Position numbers: made by a program | Source: Nitrosopumilus sp. | GTDB lineage: Archaea; Thermoproteota; Nitrososphaeria; Nitrososphaerales; Nitrosopumilaceae | Reading direction: 5' to 3' | Length of the DNA: 64,000 nt | Assembly: GCA_965207445.1 (NCBI GenBank) | Contig: CBDBLX010000002.1 | Span: 1,719,849 to 1,783,848, forward strand | In this document: one piece after another, positions 27,001-33,000 of the stretch | Layout of the letters: every line of letters starts with the position of its first letter | How positions within the stretch are numbered: position 1 is the first letter of the stretch

Positions 27001-30000
27001 TCATACAAATGATAGTGACGCTATCACACTTGCACGTTTCATGCTCTATAATCCATGTCTGCCAAAATAACACACATGTATATTCAAAAACGAAACGCAC
27101 TATAGATAGATTTCAGTCTTTATAGATTGAATGTGCAATAAATCGAGTAAGTTCACAAAAGGGTCACAGACAGGCCTAATGTCAATTACGCACCAACCTC
27201 GTGCTATCCACAAATCTTATAATTTAAAGGCATGACGTTACAGCAATGGGCACAAAAGACAAGTTTGAAATATTTGACACGAATCTTCAGCAATTGAATT
27301 CGTTGATAGAAAAAAACTCCTTTGTAAACTGTTATAGAACATGCACCGACTTGACAAGATATTCTGCAATGTCAAACTATACAGATGGATTGATAATATC
27401 AGAAATTTTAGAGGAGGTTTTTTCGCAGATACACAGGGTATTTACTGAGCATTCGATCCCAGATGACGAAAAACACATTATTGAATCTGAATTAAAAAAT
27501 GGAATTGATAAAATAAAGGGTTCTTACAAGGACGAAGATAAGAACTCACTTTATGATGGACTTAAAAAGATAAGAAATGATGCAACTCATTTTCAATTGA
27601 AATGCGGAAATAACTTTCCACACAAACAAAAGATCAGGAGACAGATTGGCGACCTTGTAATGATCATTCCAAGTAAGATGTGGGAGGACGACAAGAAAAT
27701 AGAAGAAGATATGCAACATGCCATATTGATAAAACATTTGGAAAATACGGGGGTAAACGATCCTAGTATCCATCTAAACGATACCGACAAAATTATTCGC
27801 GCTTTGTTAGAATATGTTGCGCTATGGGAAGAAAAGCATGAGGAACTCGAAGAAAAATATGAGGAACTTAAAGATCGTTACAACCGCATGACGATACAAG
27901 ATATGGACAGACAGAGTAAGGAAGCCATACAAGATCTTGAAGATATCTTCGGAATCGATTTTGACGACATCTTTGGTCCATATGAGGTGGAAGGTATGTT
28001 GAGCGACTATTCTGATGATCAATCATCCATGGAGTGGGTACGTTCTGTCCGAAGCGGTACATGAAAATTTGGTCTACTATGACACCAATGTGTGGGTGGC
28101 GTGGATGTTGTGTCCTGACGACAAATTCTATAAAAGCTCCAAAAAACTGATAGATGATGTTACAAGTGGCAAGAAAGTGGCAATAGTTTCCTACATAGTC
28201 ATACTAGAAACGATTCACGTCTTGCGAGAAAAGATGACAAAAGGCCACAAGTTTGAGACAGACTATGACACATATCATGCTCAAATTGAACACAGAATAA
28301 GAGAAGACACAAAAAAAATATGCGTCAAATTCACACTCTTGCTAGTCGAAGACAAGTAATCTTAGTAAAACCAAATATTGGTTTGGCTGAACATCACGTA
28401 CGAGTTTTGCGTGAACTGGTACGACGTTTTGGTCCCATCAAAACGTTCAGTCGATGTTCATCCTGTGGCGAGAAATTATCTTCTGAAAGTCTGATCAAAA
28501 TTTGCCCCAAATGCAAGGCGGGCATCATTCCGGCCAAATTAGAATATAGAGGGCTCGGCCATGCAGATCTGGAACATGCACTCCTTGCTAGACGCTACAA
28601 CGTGAAAACGTTCTACAGCAGTGATCGCGCATTTAAGCAGTTTAATGACGATAGGACTTTCAGAGGAATGTATTTTAAAACAATATTAAGTTGTCTTGTA
28701 AGTAGTTCCGCCTTGAGTGTACGCCTAGATATGATCATAGGAATAATCGTCAATGTAAGTAGTTCCGCCTTGAGTGTACGCCTAGATATAATCATATTTA
28801 ATATGAAGCGTATGATGAGTTTAGCTTTTATGCCCACTTGGAGAGAAAAGAAAATTGGCTACTAGTGGCGTAGATCCTCATATATCCGTGTGCGGAGTGG
28901 AAATGAAGGTGTGTGGGTCCAATCATGATCCTCGTACAAAGATCAAAACTAGGCTCAAAAATGGTAAAAAACTTCGTGTAATACATAAACTTGATGAGGA
29001 ACAGGTACGGTGGATAGTTCAGCAAAAGCACAATGATGAGATGAGTGACGCCCAGATTGCAAAATTAGTGGGTGTATCTGCACGATGGGTTAGAAAATTG
29101 TTCTTACGATATGGTCATTTACAGCCAAAAGATATCACATATCCTCCAAAGATGGGACGTCCTTCTAATGGATTACCAGGCCGTCGAGAACATTCTGCAG
29201 TGATATCTTGTTGCAAGCAGAACAGACGTATGGCAGTCAGACTCGAGACTATAATAGAAGAAGAAATCGGAATCCATATTTCTCACAATATCATATATAA
29301 GATATTGAAAGATGAGGAGTTAGTAGAAAACCAACCAAAAAAAGCAAAGCAGCGAAAGTGGGTTAGATATGAGAGAAGATTCTCAAATTCTTTATGGCAT
29401 ACGGATTTTAAGCAGATTTACGATGGTAGATGGTTTGTGTCCTATCAGGACGATGCATCTAGGATGATTATGGGCTTTGGAGTGTATAATGAACCTACAA
29501 GTGTTCATGCAATAAAGGTGCTTGAGGGCGCCATCAAGAAATACGGTAAACCTGCCCAAATACTAACGGATCATGGATCTCAGTTCTATGCAAATGAGAA
29601 AAAGAACTCTGAGCGCGGTGTAGCAGTATTTGAGAACAAGTTAGTCGAGCTTGGTATCAAACAAGTCATGGCACGTATAAAACACCCTCAAACCAATGGT
29701 AAATTAGAACGATTCCACTCTGAGATTGAACAACATCTAAAATCATTTGAAGAAGAGTCTGCATGTAATACAGTTCGTGGTTCCAAACCCGGCGACCATG
29801 TGGGGAATCCATTCCATACTAGGGGTATAACAGACCCAATAACAAGACTCGTCAACTGGTACAATAATCTCCCACATATGTCACTAAAAGACGGTAAAGA
29901 AACGCCTATAGAAGCCTATAAACGCAAACAAGCACCAAAAGACATAACAGCAAAAGAAATGGAGAGTCATGCATATGTCAAATCATAAGTGGAACTAACC

Positions 30001-33000
30001 ATATGTGGCACGAAAAACACAACAGAGCAGAAATTCAGATGGTATAGATCGTGATTCGCACAAGCAAAATGCAAACAAACAGATTAGGGGTAGAAAAAAT
30101 GACCATATGGATAGTCATAGCGTAAGCAAGGTGAAAAAAACAACCACAAAAACATCGGTAAAATATGATAATGCTCAAAAATATTTTGTTGGTATTGATC
30201 TTCACAAAAAATTCATGCAAGTGGCAATTATGGATCCTAAAGGTAATGTTCTTCAAAATAAACGAATTGAGTGCAATCATATTGATATTGTAAAAGAATT
30301 TTCTGAGTTTCCGCCCAATGCAAAATACGTGTTGGAATCTTCTTCAGTATGGTATGGCATGTATAGATTTCTCACAGAAAAATTGCATTTGGATGTGATG
30401 TTATCAAATCCACTTGCAACAAAACGAATAGCTGAATCAAAAAAGAAGACAGATAAAGTAGATGCTCGTATATTGGCAGATCTGCTAAGGGGTGGATATA
30501 TTGCAGGATGTTATGTTCCAGAGGAAAAGGATGTGCATAATAGACAATTGGTCAGGTATAGAAGTACAGTAGTAAAGTCTAGAGTAAAGTCCAAAAATAG
30601 TGTTCATGCAATATTGTTACAAAGTGGAATCAAGATCAAAGGGATTCCATTTTCTGCTGAACATATACAAAATTTACGCAAGCTTAATGACTGGAGGATA
30701 GACAAACATATCAAAACAATTGCATTTTTAAATGATGATGTTCGTGATTGTGATGATAAAATATCCAATGCAGTATCAAAAAACGAACATGCTTCACTTT
30801 TGACTACAATGCCTGGAATCGGTCCTGTTACTGCGCTTACATTATCATCTGAAATTGGTGATATCTCAAGATTTCGTGATATGGGCAGTCTTGTTGCTTA
30901 TTTTGGACTAGCTCCATCTGTGAGGAATTCTGCCAGTACAGTTCACCATGGTGCCATAACGAAAATGGGAAATTCCATGGTTCGACAGTTGCTCACAGAA
31001 TGTGTGTTGTCTCATGTGCAGTTTGCAAAGAATAATAATCGACAGACTCCAATAAGTGTATTTTATGAAAGATTAAAGGAGAAAAGAGGCGTCTCAAAAG
31101 CACAGGTTGCCGCTGCTGCCAAGATGCTCAAAATTGTATTTTGGATGCTAACAAAGAATATAGATTTTTGGACATGTATAGAGATGGGTAAAAAGAGTAC
31201 ACATCGTAACCCCAAGAAAAAAAATGAATAGATGTGAAAAATTATGGTTAGGGATTTGTGCGTTGTAAGTGTGAGATTTAATGCTCGGGGAACTAACTGC
31301 ATGGTGCCCCTAACGAATGGATGAAGCATGGTATTGAGATTTAATGCTCGTATAGATACATATCCGAACCATCCTCCGGAAAAACACCACCCTAGCGTAT
31401 GCTGCGCACTTTAGTACGAAAAGTGAAGAATCGCTTATAAGGATCCCACATAGATACTTACAGGATAGCACAATTTTAAAACAATATATTCACAGTGACG
31501 CTTTATAGTACACGCTCAGACCGGCCCCAAATTTGTGTTCATGGTTATGTGCCGTTCATGTACTTTGTCTGTGACTTCAATTAACGCGAGTGTATAGAGA
31601 CCAGTCAGATATACTTTCTTGCAATAAGAAAGTGTGCAAGCGCACGTGAGTTCAATTCCCTTCTCACATCAAGAATATCATGTTAGTCCGTAACCGTTCA
31701 ATTTCCGTGCCTGCACCAGATGTTAGACGGTGAATCTATGCCTAAATTTGAGGAGGGGTTGAACGGTTACTGTTAGTCCATGCACAACATATTTCATATG
31801 CAAAATGCTAGGTTTTCCTCATTTGTAATAAAAATGGATAAGGGATATTGTAAGTGCCCCGATTCGCTTTCTGCCGTCTAAAGGTATCCAGGCCCCCGCT
31901 TACAGCGCCACTACCATTGTCACCATCATCACTCTTCTTCCCGAACCGATCTGTCCCATATTTGAAATAAAACCTGCCAACAGACATGTTGCACCGCATG
32001 CATCACCATAATATGACGTTATAGAATCAACGTCTCGCTCTCTTTCTGCCGTAAGGGGATTCGTTCAAACAGAGGAGTCCGCCCGTCTGCCACCTTTGTC
32101 GCATCCCTGTAGACCGCTTCGAGTCTATCCCCTGCTGCAATAATCTCAGAGTCCAAGACTGCGATCCACTTGCCTGCATACTTCCCCTTGTTTTGCAAAA
32201 GTTTCAATACGAATTCTGATTCTTCACTGCTGCTCATATGTCACAATCTATCGTGACCATTATATCAATTTTTATGATCATGTAGATGGATTCCGTCATA
32301 ATATGCTGCATACTGATATGATTAAAGATCCGATATTTTGATTGATATTCATCTCGAAGTTGAGCATATATTATGAATACAAAATATTAGAAAAATATCG
32401 GATCTTTAATGAAACTATTATGCATAGGATATATTCAAATGGTACAGAATCATTGTATATGGTAGGAGTCACAAATCACATTGGTATGCCAGATGATGAA
32501 ATAGAAGTCACTTATAATCAGATTCGTAATAATGATCTCCATCCGTTTTTTGGTAAATGGGTAAACGCACACAATATCGAATTTACAGATATATTGCATC
32601 CAATAAACCATGGAATAGATGAATTGTGTGAACCAATTTCCATGATTGGTATGATCATTCGAAAACAACTCCTAGCCAAATGTATCGCATGCACGATATT
32701 CGATATATAGATAGGAATATAACCAAATACAAGTATGTATTTCATTGTTGTGTCCAATGAGCTTGGTTCACACGATGAATGCAATATATCTGAACTGAAG
32801 AAGAACTATTCACAAGAATTTGTATTAAAGATAAATAATGATGGACGCATAACATATGTGTGAAACGATACAAAAATACGTTTGGGCCGCCCCACTTGAC
32901 AAATGAATGGATTACACTTGAACAAATTCTACACGGAATACCGTTAGGTGTATTCAAGTATGAAGATCTTCCAGACGTGATAAAAAATGACTTAGATGCA

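What a model noticed while it worked through the whole genome (the two positions that open the first line are those of the whole stretch)
29998..31456. IS1111-type IS110 elements with 3' bridge/seek-RNA guides matching the inverted repeats of a co-resident IS
A 1,459-bp IS110-family element (C2:1749846-1751304 + and C2:1283715-1285174 -) carries in the 225 nt after its transposase gene a two-loop RNA: each loop is closed by a stem and holds a small hairpin (GAGATTTAATGCTCG) between two guide stretches. In loop 1 the guides TGTAAGT and GGAACTA spell the two halves of the insertion site GGAAC-TA-CTTACA (one as reverse complement); in loop 2 ATGGT and ATAGATA spell the element's own left and right ends. 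Both copies sit in that 13-mer, which in this genome occurs only in the terminal inverted repeats of a 1.3-kb rve-type IS. A second type (C2:1400860-1402322; broken copy 1188157-1189621) has the same scaffold with other guides, and a third, IS110-gro [...]
Evidence so far: Ends and flanks: calls 40,41,67,69,70,73; both type-B copies read ...GGAACTA|ACCATATG...CATAGATA|CTTACA (TA core). Guides by k-mer search. GGAACTACTTACA: 10 free occurrences in C2, all at ends of the rve IS. Type A: loop stretch TTTGCATAGATT / in copy 1165855 TTTGTATAGATT, matching left flanks ..TGCATAG, ..AGCATAG and ..TTGTATAG (guide and flank change together, call 69); the other guide reads (rc) ATAGTGATTC, and GCATAGTGATTTC occurs 5 more times, each at an IS630 end. 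Relatives: the type-B transposase finds homologues in 13 of 100 other Nitrosopumilus genomes; in 19 loci parsed (12 distinct guides; 6 of 25 loci could not be parsed) the 12 nt before hairpin 1 share a median 8-nt exact rever [...]
(Added by a program. Inside this text positions count along the whole contig: contig position 1,719,849 is position 1 of the stretch shown here. "Call 12" and the like, gene names such as g00115 and contig names such as C1 are that model's own, and its searches are not shown. The text may have been shortened before it was handed on; [...] marks where a part breaks off. The agent that wrote the report below was given it as the finding of a first reader that could run no searches.)

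Follow-up and report, generated by a model that had tools for sequence, protein, structure and literature searches.

The report
Archaeal IS1111-like element with bridge RNA
A 1.46-kb jumping gene carries, behind its transposase gene, a small two-loop RNA whose variable stretches spell the site it inserts into (the end of another jumping gene) and its own ends; it is a new archaeal example of the RNA-guided "bridge/seek RNA" transposons described in bacteria in 2024, not a new kind of system.

Summary
Window 29998-31456 is a 1,459-bp IS110-family element: a DEDD transposase gene (30005-31231) followed by a 225-nt non-coding right end. It sits in GGAAC-TA-CTTACA inside the terminal inverted repeat of an IS481-like (rve) IS (28687-31472). 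The right end holds two internal loops. Each has a 5' arm that is the reverse complement of the sequence right of the TA core and a 3' arm identical to the sequence left of it. Loop 1 spells the target; loop 2 spells the element's own ends.

Within this one element the evidence is weak: the MFE fold is no better than shuffles, and both target 7-mers appear in 58 of 2000 shuffles. The comparative evidence is strong:
- 27 of 30 related loci share the scaffold.
- In 34 model-aligned copies, 98.4% of pair cells pair and 17 of 25 pairs show compensatory change.
- Target arms are nearly random (25 distinct among 25 loci) yet match each locus's own flanks (0 of 10,000 permutations on either side).
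- Donor arms covary with the ends.

Guide order, RNA position and sub-terminal repeats fit the IS1111 group. Transcription is untested. Verdict: new member of a known kind, moderate interest.

The parts
29998..31456 (+). IS110-family (IS1111-like) insertion sequence, 1,459 bp
   Evidence: Two copies, 99% identical, with identical ends and flanks.
29998..30008 (+). Left end: 4-nt extension ACCA plus the left sub-terminal inverted repeat TATGTGG (30002-30008). The repeat contains the GTG start codon at 30005.
   Evidence: Sequence. The motif A[CT][CT][AG]TATGTG is conserved at the left ends of relatives.
30005..31231 (+). Transposase gene, 408 aa. Catalytic residues D65, E111, D150, D153; conserved Ser309 in G-L-A-P-x4-S-A.
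   Evidence: Pfam PF01548 and PF02371. NCBIfam NF033542 'IS110 family RNA-guided transposase', 241 bits against a cut-off of 140. Residue conservation in 26 relatives.
31243..31374 (+). Predicted bridge/seek RNA core (two internal loops); true 5' and 3' ends unknown
   Evidence: Covariance model R1 scores 154.6 bits here; pair statistics.
31247..31314 (+). Target-binding loop. Outer stem 31247-31253 / 31308-31314; inner stem 31258-31262 / 31298-31302.
   Evidence: Helices 1 and 2: 10 of 12 pairs show changes on both sides.
31263..31271 (+). Right target guide (5' arm). [quoted passage not shown]
   Evidence: In relatives this arm matches their right flanks.
31272..31287 (+). Distal hairpin 1 (TGAGATTTAATGCTCG)
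   Evidence: Helix 3: 4 of 4 pairs compensatory, 100% paired.
31288..31297 (+). Left target guide (3' arm). GGAACTA is identical to the left target plus the TA core, so it pairs with the bottom strand.
   Evidence: In relatives this arm matches their left flanks.
31319..31374 (+). Donor-binding loop. The closing 5' strand GGATG (31319-31323) has two mutually exclusive 3' partners: 31361-31365, or CATCC at 31370-31374.
   Evidence: Helix 4 supports the first partner.
31327..31334 (+). Right donor guide (5' arm). ATGGT is the reverse complement of the left end ACCAT.
   Evidence: It covaries with the left end in relatives: ACTAT, ACCGT, ATCAT, TTTGT.
31335..31350 (+). Distal hairpin 2, identical in sequence to hairpin 1
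   Evidence: Helix 5. Hairpin likeness within elements.
31351..31359 (+). Left donor guide (3' arm). ATAGATA is identical to the right end.
   Evidence: It covaries with the right end in relatives: ATGGATA, ATGAGTA, AAGGTAA.
31435..31442 (+). Conserved TATA-like box (TTATAAGG), 22 nt inside the right end
   Evidence: A TATA-like heptamer starts 19-25 nt from the right end in 20 of 23 relatives. Its function is inferred.
31446..31456 (+). Right sub-terminal inverted repeat CCACATA (31446-31452) plus 4-nt extension GATA
   Evidence: Sequence; conserved CACAT[AG]GATA in relatives.
28687..31472 (+). Host element: an IS481-like rve IS, 1,327 bp without the insert. Gene at 28855-29988. Flanked by a 15-bp direct repeat, ATTTTAAAACAATAT. 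Its right inverted repeat is split by the insertion into GGAACTA (29991-29997) and CTTACA (31457-31462).
28697..28766 (-). Two unoccupied copies of the 13-bp target (28697-28709 and 28754-28766) in the tandemly repeated left end of the rve IS

Best explanation
This is an active or recently active IS1111-like member of the IS110 family.

**Proposed mechanism.** Its DEDD recombinase is guided by an RNA encoded in the 225-nt right end.
- The RNA folds into two internal loops, each holding a small distal hairpin.
- In the target loop, the 5' arm pairs with the top strand to the right of a TA core (A-CTTACA). The 3' arm pairs with the bottom strand to the left of the core and over it (GGAAC-TA).
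- In the donor loop, the arms do the same with the abutted ends of the excised circle (...ATAGA-TA-ACCAT...).
- The complex therefore recombines the circle into GGAAC-TA-CTTACA. In this genome that sequence exists only in the terminal inverted repeats of an IS481-like IS. The element thus lives in, and splits the end of, another IS.

**Shown here:** the anatomy, the conserved covarying structure, the guide-flank and guide-end covariation, and the exclusive location of the target.

**Inferred from the published IS1111/IS110 systems:** transcription, protein binding, a circular intermediate, and strand exchange at the TA core.
For: **Protein.** PF01548 and PF02371. NF033542 'IS110 family RNA-guided transposase' at 241 bits, cut-off 140. 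D-E-D-D and Ser are conserved in 25-26 of 26 relatives. Distant matches to the solved bridge recombinases ISCro4 (3e-8) and IS621 (5e-7).

**Insertions.**
- 2 full copies share identical junctions.
- 3 remnants lie next to (T)GAACTA or CTTACA.
- The 13-mer occurs 10 times, all at rve-IS ends.

**RNA structure.**
- 27 of 30 related loci share the scaffold.
- Model R1 finds 34 copies in 33 loci, and 30 more in 80 named loci. All 30 of those lie on the transposase strand, and 29 of them immediately downstream of the matched transposase region; the second L071 hit lies upstream of it.
- 98.4% of 809 pair cells pair, against 87% in shuffles and 30-45% with slid partners.
- 17 of 25 pairs show compensatory change.
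- The many G-U pairs would be A-C mismatches on the other strand, which fixes the strand.

**Guides.**
- Target arms carry 1.4-2.0 bits of entropy. There are 25 distinct right guides and 23 distinct left guides among 25 loci, and the TA core is invariant.
- Donor arms carry mostly 0-1 bit, up to 1.9 at the arms' outer positions.
- Left guide against the locus's own left flank: mean run 3.3 nt beyond the core, versus 0.39 in cross-pairs.
- Right guide against the locus's own right flank: mean 5.65 nt versus 2.48.
- 0 of 10,000 permutations reach either value. The right-side result still holds at 0 of 10,000 after dropping three loci whose right end I picked by eye.
- Sister copies with slightly different right guides sit next to correspondingly different flanks (L053, L068, L069).

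**Guide order.** The top-strand match lies 5' of the bottom-strand match, as published for IS1111 seekRNAs.
Against: - No RNA data exist for this organism in the runs offered, so neither transcription nor RNA ends are known.
- The MFE fold of the single sequence is not better than shuffles.
- On this element alone, both target 7-mers arise somewhere in the non-coding region in 58 of 2000 shuffles.
- Among relatives, 5 of 23 left sides match by 1 nt or less beyond the core, and 6 of 23 right sides by 3 nt or less. Only 9 of 21 loci fit well on both sides. L022 fits on neither.
- The second type in this genome fits poorly on the right.
- The right donor guide covers only 5 nt.
- The alignment used for pair counts was fitted to the model's structure, which favours pairing.
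- Relatives are kin, so permutation figures overstate independence.
Confidence: 0.88

Rival explanations
1. The transposase recognises the site by protein-DNA contacts alone. The matching stretches in the right end would then act as DNA, for example as internal binding sites that mimic the ends and the target, not as an RNA guide.
For: No transcript has been shown. The donor-type matches (ATAGATA, ATGGT) repeat sequences of the ends and could be protein-binding repeats. Some relatives fit their flanks poorly.
Against: - A fixed protein cannot explain 25 different target arms that each match their own flanks.
- Compensatory changes in 17 of 25 pairs, plus strand-specific G-U pairs, indicate a folded single strand read in the sense direction.
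- Homologous systems have been shown by experiment to use the RNA (abstract; passages).
Confidence: 0.05
2. The conserved structure is a regulatory 3' UTR or antisense-control element of the transposase mRNA, and its likeness to target and ends is a by-product.
For: It lies directly behind the stop codon on the sense strand. No separate promoter for it was recognised by eye in the sequences.
Against: A regulatory role does not predict hypervariable arms that track the flanking DNA of each copy, split into one reverse-complement half and one direct half around an invariant TA.
Confidence: 0.04
3. The element is a decayed or domesticated relic that no longer moves, and the guide-target fit records past activity only.
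For: - Only 2 full copies exist.
- There are 3 remnants and one orphan RNA/right-end fragment.
- The second type has a broken copy.
Against: - The two copies are 99% identical, with intact 408-409 aa reading frames and intact catalytic residues.
- 10 free target sites remain.
- This rival concerns present activity, not mechanism, so it is compatible with the main explanation.
Confidence: 0.25

Closest known systems
IS1111-family seekRNA elements (ISEc11, ISPa11, ISKpn4, ISPst6; Siddiquee et al. 2024, PMC11187229)
   Same: - DEDD transposase and a long non-coding region downstream of tnp.
- Sub-terminal inverted repeats with terminal extensions.
- A short RNA with one stretch matching the top strand lying 5' of one matching the bottom strand.
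- Each IS lineage selects its own site.
   Different: - Archaeal host lineage.
- Only about 25% identity to the enterobacterial plasmid copies, which I take to be IS5075/IS4321-type (that label is recalled, not read from the records).
- The sub-terminal repeat is 7 bp, against the usual 11-13 bp.
- Extensions are 4/4 (or 6/2 if the TA is assigned to the left), against 7/3.
- The protein is 408 aa against 330-350 aa, because of a roughly 60-aa N-terminal extension.
- The Ser motif is mostly S-A (21 of 26) rather than S/T-G.
IS621 / ISCro4 bridge RNA (IS110 group; Durrant et al. 2024, PMC11208160; PDB 8wt6, 9t56)
   Same: - Two internal loops, one binding the target and one the donor.
- Each loop has a left guide pairing with the bottom strand and a right guide pairing with the top strand around a core dinucleotide.
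- The donor loop is more conserved than the target loop.
- Here both loops are simple internal loops with a distal hairpin, as in IS621.
   Different: - The RNA is in the right end, not the left.
- The order of the arms is reversed.
- The core is TA rather than CT.
- The proteins are only distantly alike (E = 5e-7).
- Durrant et al. say that many IS1111 RNAs place the donor nucleotides in a multi-loop. This clade does not.
IS4321 / IS5075 (IS1111 family; Partridge & Hall 2003)
   Same: An IS1111-type element that targets the terminal inverted repeats of another transposon, in one orientation.
   Different: Their target is the inverted repeat of Tn21-family transposons in bacteria. Here it is the inverted repeat of an IS481-like IS in an archaeon. 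I saw only the title of that paper, in a reference list.
Haloarchaeal IS110-family elements (ISHvo9 family and relatives)
   Same: These are the closest annotated proteins in the plasmid collection: 33-35% identity over residues 58-388.
   Different: They are a different clade. I did not examine whether they carry this RNA scaffold.

Membership tests
IS110 family (DEDD, RNA-guided transposases) | DEDD_Tnp_IS110 and Transposase_20 domains; NCBIfam equivalog | tested here: met
   PF01548 at 84.7 bits and PF02371 at 80.8 bits. NF033542 at 241 bits, cut-off 140.
IS110 family (DEDD, RNA-guided transposases) | Catalytic D-E-D-D and the conserved Ser of the G-x-x-P-x4-S-G finger | tested here: met
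   D65, E111, D150, D153 and S309 are conserved in 25-26 of 26 relatives. The residue after Ser is A in 21 and G in 5.
IS110 family (DEDD, RNA-guided transposases) | Site- and orientation-specific insertion with no long target duplication | tested here: met
   Both copies lie in GGAAC-TA-CTTACA in the same orientation relative to the site. TA is present at both junctions.
IS1111 group | The longer non-coding region lies downstream of tnp | tested here: met
   225 nt downstream, against 7 nt upstream of the GTG. The RNA model always hits just 3' of tnp in relatives.
IS1111 group | Sub-terminal inverted repeats: 7-17 bp (Durrant) or usually 11-13 bp (Siddiquee), with short terminal extensions | tested here: inconclusive
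   TATGTGG / CCACATA is 7 bp, the lower limit. Extensions are 4 and 4 nt, or 6 and 2 if TA is counted on the left, against the published 7 and 3.
IS1111 group | In the RNA, the top-strand match lies 5' of the bottom-strand match | tested here: met
   The 5' arm is the reverse complement of the right target and the 3' arm equals the left target.
IS1111 group | The transposase groups with IS1111 transposases in a phylogeny; length 330-350 aa | not tested
   No tree with labelled reference transposases was built. The length is 408 aa from the GTG, and the homologous core spans residues 61-385.
Bridge RNA / seekRNA | Conserved secondary structure with two loops, supported by covariation | tested here: met
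   98.4% of cells paired; 17 of 25 pairs with changes on both sides; 0 of 500 shuffles reach this. The alignment was fitted to the model.
Bridge RNA / seekRNA | Loop arms complementary to both strands of the target and of the donor, changing together with them | tested here: met
   0 of 10,000 permutations on each side. Exceptions are listed.
Bridge RNA / seekRNA | The RNA is transcribed, binds the transposase and is required for transposition | not testable with these tools
   No RNA run was listed; the runs that could be laid are DNA contigs only.
Rfam families | Match to a curated RNA family | tested here: not met
   0 matches at E up to 1 over window 28000-33000.

The most novel reading that the evidence does not exclude
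**Claim.** In this archaeal clade the transposase may be switched on only in the excised circle, by an archaeal-type junction promoter.
- A conserved TATA-like box lies 22 nt inside the right end (20 of 23 loci).
- On end-joining it would sit about 29 nt upstream of a GTG that lies inside the left sub-terminal repeat.
- The transposase frame is open from left-end position +1, with this GTG at +7, in 19 of 21 loci.
- The result would be a leaderless mRNA whose start codon is part of the recombination end.

**Second point.** The two loops carry twin distal hairpins that evolve in concert. The mean edit distance is 3.1 within elements and 5.3 between them, with 0 of 10,000 permutations reaching this. 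That suggests one protein surface reads both loops.

**Status.** Circle-junction promoters are known for bacterial IS110/IS1111 elements. An archaeal TATA/leaderless version has, to my knowledge, not been described. I ran no dedicated literature search for it beyond. The spacing rule (TATA centred about 26 nt upstream of the start site) is recalled, not taken from a call.
Probability: 0.4. Interest if true: 0.5.

Novelty: new member of a known kind. Interest (0 to 1): 0.4.

Why it matters
- It extends RNA-guided bridge/seek recombination, so far worked out in bacteria, to a well-defined clade in ammonia-oxidising and related archaea. The named relatives are Nitrosopumilaceae, Nitrososphaeraceae and a Bathyarchaeia MAG.
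- It supplies a compact scaffold of about 130 nt with simple loops.
- It provides a natural series of at least 25 differently programmed target loops with their cognate sites. That is ready-made data on guide rules, such as the TA core, a 5-nt-plus-core left guide and a 6-9 nt right guide.
- The RNA family is not in Rfam 15.
- It shows that, in these IS-rich archaeal genomes, IS ends serve as landing pads for other IS. This disables the host IS and gives the guest a multi-copy safe site.
- None of this overturns current understanding.

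Tried and rejected
- **Single-sequence folding**: it does not give the two-loop fold, and z = 0.34 and -0.53.
- **Rfam** at E up to 1: nothing.
- **Position-free shuffle test on this element alone**: weak, 58 of 2000 for both target matches.
- **RNA evidence**: no RNA holder was listed for the element.
  - The four runs laid are contigs of one sample. They show only the other genomic copies, as loose ends CTTACAGGATAGCACA at 29997 and AGACAACTTA at 31462.
  - They show no circle junction.
- **MAFFT plus RNAalifold on 22 sequences**: it recovered three helices but missed hairpin 1 and the inner stem through misalignment. 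This was solved with a model built from 6 well-aligned sequences.
- **A possible extra guide.** The 5' strand of the outer stem (TATGGTTA) is the reverse complement of TA+ACCATA. It changes with the left end in L007, L012 and L029, but not in L021, L017 or L028. I left it as unexplained.
- **Reach of model R1.** It did not hit the Bathyarchaeia, Thermoplasmatales, Hadarchaeum or bacterial relatives. By eye, the Bathyarchaeia locus L074 does have the scaffold with matching guides, so the model is too narrow. This is no evidence of absence.
- **Earlier notes of this scan**: none fit.
- **Parsing failures and exclusions.**
  - 3 of 30 loci had no linker motif (L010, L020, L024).
  - L005 and L026 had no parsable hairpin 1.
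  - The right ends of L002 and L012 were not set by my script.
  - For L008, L023 and L028 I chose one of several candidate right ends by eye.

Full report
**What is at the coordinates.**

Window 29998-31456 is a 1,459-bp element.
- It has one long ORF (30005-31231, 408 aa from a GTG) carrying DEDD_Tnp_IS110 and Transposase_20 domains.
- The ORF scores 241 bits against NCBIfam NF033542, 'IS110 family RNA-guided transposase', cut-off 140.
- The catalytic D65, E111, D150 and D153, and Ser309 in G-L-A-P-x4-S-A, are conserved in 25-26 of 26 aligned relatives. Four loci with internal stops were left out.
- The solved bridge recombinases ISCro4 and IS621 are distant matches, at E = 3e-8 and 5e-7.
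- Behind the stop codon lie 225 non-coding nucleotides.

**Copies and insertion site.**

The genome holds a second copy, 99% identical, at C2:1283715-1285174 on the other strand. It also holds a 66%-identical second type at 1400860-1402322 and 1188157-1189621, plus fragments.
- Both full copies read ...GGAACTA|ACCATATG...CATAGATA|CTTACA....
- The uninterrupted 13-mer GGAACTACTTACA occurs 10 times in 2.6 Mb. Each occurrence is in one of two contexts that are the two ends of a 1.3-kb rve-type IS.
- In the window, that IS runs from 28687 to 31472 and is flanked by a 15-bp direct repeat, ATTTTAAAACAATAT.
- Its left end carries two tandem 57-bp units, each with a free target site. Its right inverted repeat is split by the insertion, 16 bp from its outer end.
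- The rve protein is IS481-like but below NCBIfam's cut-off, 152 bits against 224.
- Three remnants elsewhere support repeated use of the site: a right-end piece beside CTTACAAGACAACTTA, an RNA-plus-right-end piece beside CTTACAGGAC, and a left-end piece behind TGAACTA.

**The RNA region in this element.**

Read 5' to 3' on the + strand, the features are:

| Feature | Coordinates | Sequence or note |
|---|---|---|
| Outer stem | 31247-53 / 31308-14 | |
| Inner stem | 31258-62 / 31298-302 | |
| 5' arm, loop 1 | 31263-71 | holds TGTAAGT |
| Hairpin 1 | 31272-87 | TGAGATTTAATGCTCG |
| 3' arm, loop 1 | 31288-97 | holds GGAACTA |
| Linker | | |
| Closing strand | 31319-23 | GGATG |
| 5' arm, loop 2 | 31327-34 | holds ATGGT |
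| Hairpin 2 | 31335-50 | same sequence as hairpin 1 |
| 3' arm, loop 2 | 31351-59 | holds ATAGATA |
| Two alternative 3' partners for GGATG | 31361-65 or 31370-74 | |

- TGTAAGT is the reverse complement of A-CTTACA, and GGAACTA equals the left target with the TA core.
- ATGGT is the reverse complement of the left end ACCAT, and ATAGATA equals the right end.
- The two loops are therefore built alike. The 5' arm pairs with the top strand to the right of the core. The 3' arm pairs with the bottom strand to the left of the core and over it.

**How strong is that alone?**

It is not strong.
- MFE folding gives other structures, and the energies are no better than shuffles.
- In a position-free test, each 7-mer match is reached in 16-20% of shuffles of the non-coding region. 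Both target matches are reached together in 58 of 2000.
- Rfam has no match.

**Relatives.**

A protein search of 401 genomes of the family found homologues at E of 1e-30 or better in 51. One of these, G228, is flagged unpublished and enters only this tally. Thirty loci were returned.
- 27 of the 30 share a linker motif (TGGATGAAG-like) and the scaffold around it.
- A covariance model built from six well-aligned sequences, with my hand-drawn structure of 25 pairs, found 34 copies in the 33 loci held.
- It found 5 in the window's genome: the two copies, the two of the second type, and one orphan remnant.
- It found 30 in 80 named loci. All 30 lie on the transposase strand, and 29 of them directly downstream of the matched transposase region; the second L071 hit lies upstream of it.
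- On the 34-row alignment, 98.4% of 809 pair cells form standard pairs, against 86.8% in shuffles and 30-45% with partners slid by 1-3 columns.
- 17 of 25 pairs have changes on both sides, and 0 of 500 shuffles reach the observed covariation.
- That alignment is fitted to the model, which favours pairing. An independent MAFFT/RNAalifold run had already found three of the helices with compensatory changes.
- The frequent G-U and U-G pairs, for example 28, 23, 33 and 30 rows at four pairs, would be A-C on the other strand. The structure therefore belongs to the sense strand.
- The closing helix of loop 2 is ambiguous. GGAUG can pair with the conserved UGUCC just after the arm, or with a stretch a few bases further on. 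The second option carries clear compensatory changes in L007, L023, L027 and L028.

**Guides track their DNA.**

I parsed 25 loci by fixed rules: the hairpins, the TA-A anchor, the conserved left-end motif, and the right end found through the loop-2 arm.
- The target arms are close to random. Entropy is 1.4-2.0 bits per position, with 25 distinct right arms and 23 distinct left arms. The TA core is invariant.
- The donor arms are conserved, mostly at 0-1 bit (up to 1.9 at the arms' outer positions), with 5 distinct right-end guides.
- The left arm matches the locus's own left flank for a mean of 3.3 nt beyond the core. 14 of 23 loci have 4 nt or more. Cross-pairs give 0.39.
- The right arm matches its own right flank for a mean of 5.65 nt. 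12 of 23 loci have 7 nt or more. Cross-pairs give 2.48.
- 0 of 10,000 permutations reach either mean. Dropping the three loci whose right end I picked by eye leaves 0 of 10,000.
- The donor arms covary with the ends. On the right: ATAGATA, ATGGATA, ATGAGTA and AAGGTAA. On the left: ACCAT, ACTAT, ACCGT, ATCAT and TTTGT.
- Further loci add cases, some of them duplicates of the first set.
  - One is a 10-nt right match, in L052.
  - Sister copies L053, L068 and L069 have right arms differing by one or two bases and flanks differing to match.
  - Four copies with the arm CTTGCTA lie behind T(T/A)TGCTA.
- Misfits are real.
  - 5 of 23 left sides match by 1 nt or less, and 6 of 23 right sides by 3 nt or less.
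  - Only 9 of 21 loci fit well on both sides, and L022 fits on neither.
  - The G177-type copies fit the left arm by only 3-4 nt.
  - The second type in this genome fits poorly on the right.

**Comparison with what is known.**

- Durrant et al. 2024 (passages read) define the bridge RNA. It has two internal loops. The left guides pair with the bottom strand and the right guides with the top strand around a core dinucleotide, and the donor loop is the more conserved.
  - They predict such RNAs in 93% of ISfinder IS1111 elements, in the right end.
  - They note that many IS1111 RNAs place donor nucleotides in a multi-loop.
- Siddiquee et al. 2024 (abstract, sections 6, 9 and 13, and passages read) report the following.
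  - IS1111 elements have a downstream non-coding region and a seekRNA of 82-96 nt with the top-strand match 5' of the bottom-strand match.
  - Sub-terminal repeats are usually 11-13 bp, with 7/3-bp extensions. Transposases are 330-350 aa with a GL-P----S(t)G motif.
  - A circle junction creates a promoter.
  - They state that the family is abundant in bacteria and archaea.
- IS4321/IS5075 target the inverted repeats of Tn21-type transposons (title only).
- A 2024 preprint counts 662 archaeal IS110 recombinases (passages).
- The present element meets the RNA position, the guide order and the two-loop logic.
- It differs in five respects: a 7-bp sub-terminal repeat, 4/4 (or 6/2) extensions, a roughly 60-aa N-terminal extension, S-A instead of S-G in most members, and simple twin-hairpin loops.
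- I built no labelled phylogeny, so 'IS1111 group' rests on architecture.
- The nearest annotated proteins in the plasmid collection are haloarchaeal, at 33-35% identity and including the ISHvo9 family. Enterobacterial plasmid copies are about 25% identical.
- On whether this is in print:
  - A search for IS110 + Nitrosopumilus + transposase gave 3 papers, none on guide RNAs by title or abstract.
  - A search for bridge RNA, IS110, archaea and Nitrososphaer* listed 15 of 24 papers, none of which holds both 'bridge RNA' and 'Nitrososphaer'.

**Other observations.**

- In 19 of 21 loci the transposase frame is open from position +1 of the left end, and the first start codon is the GTG at +7, inside the conserved end.
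- In 20 of 23 loci a TATA-like heptamer starts 19-25 nt from the right end.
- Joined in a circle, these would give a TATA box about 29 nt upstream of a leaderless start codon. That would be an archaeal counterpart of the bacterial junction promoter. This is inference only.
- The two distal hairpins of one element are more alike than hairpins of different elements. The mean edit distance is 3.1 against 5.3, 4 of 22 pairs are identical, and 0 of 10,000 permutations reach this.
  - Its arms read TGAATCACTAT and TTTGCATAGATT (TTTGTATAGATT in the copy behind ..TTGTATAG).
  - Its target GCAT-AG-TGATTTC occurs 5 times at the start of another repeated element.
  - Its two-loop region lies in the 185-nt left end, upstream of the gene. 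It nevertheless has IS1111-like arm order and sub-terminal repeats.
  - I did not verify that the target element is IS630.

**Verdict.**

It is a new archaeal member of the known IS1111/IS110 bridge-RNA kind. It has a well-supported new RNA scaffold and a natural set of reprogrammed guides. Expression and function of the RNA remain to be shown.

Noticed in passing
window 31435-31442 with 29998-30008; loci L001-L030: A TATA-like box lies 22 nt inside the right end (20 of 23 loci). The transposase frame is open from left-end position +1 with a GTG at +7 (19 of 21 loci). After circle formation this would be a junction promoter driving a leaderless mRNA.
   Followed up: partly
window 31272-31287 and 31335-31350; relatives: The two distal hairpins are identical here and in 3 other loci. 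Within elements they are more alike than between elements (mean edit distance 3.1 against 5.3), which points to concerted evolution.
   Followed up: partly
window 28687-28790 and 31457-31472: The host rve (IS481-like) IS has a 15-bp target duplication, ATTTTAAAACAATAT. Its left end is made of two tandem 57-bp units, so each copy offers three target sites for the guest IS.
   Followed up: partly
window 31681-31779: An 81-bp MITE-like element (31690-31770) with inverted ends GTAACCGTTCAA...TTGAACGGTTAC and a 9-bp duplication, TGTTAGTCC. Contigs of 3 of 4 runs also hold the form that skips 90 nt, that is, the empty site.
   Followed up: partly
window 30665-30673: Contig loose ends that begin or end with the same GTAACCGTTCAAC.../...GTTGAACGGTTAC termini. 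They suggest that a variant of this IS in the sampled population carries that MITE inside the transposase gene, with 9 bp duplicated.
   Followed up: no
genome C2:1572308-1572519 (-), 601104-601156, 944017-944184, 723467-723879: Remnants of the same IS types:
- an orphan RNA plus right end beside CTTACAGGAC, 83.8 bits with the RNA model;
- a 53-bp right end beside CTTACAAGACAACTTA;
- a left end behind TGAACTA;
- a truncated copy of the second type.
   Followed up: partly
genome C2:2063102-2064522, 1274970-1276390, 1165856-1167268 (type A): An IS110-family element whose two-loop guide region lies upstream of the gene (left end 185 nt). It still has IS1111-like arm order and roughly 8-12-bp sub-terminal repeats. 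Its core is AG, and its target GCAT-AG-TGATTTC lies at the start of another repeated element.
   Followed up: partly
L012 and L029 (right junctions): The right junction reads ...GA-TG-... instead of ...GA-TA-.... The G matches the right target guide rather than the donor guide, as if target and donor cores differed at one base.
   Followed up: no
L008 (2636-2771 +, 2864-2937 +, 3226-3361 -): Three matches of the RNA model in one 4-kb locus, with a repeated right end. This looks like nested or tandem copies of the element.
   Followed up: no
window 31243-31250: The 5' strand of the outer stem (TATGGTTA) is the reverse complement of TA+ACCATA, the left junction. It changes with the left end in L007, L012 and L029 but not in L021, L017 or L028.
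   Followed up: partly
L074 (Bathyarchaeia MAG), L102 (Nitrososphaeraceae MAG): The same scaffold with fitting guides occurs outside Nitrosopumilaceae. L074 was missed by the narrow model but is visible by eye: its right arm reverse complement TAAATTCG matches the junction TAA|ATTCG.
   Followed up: partly
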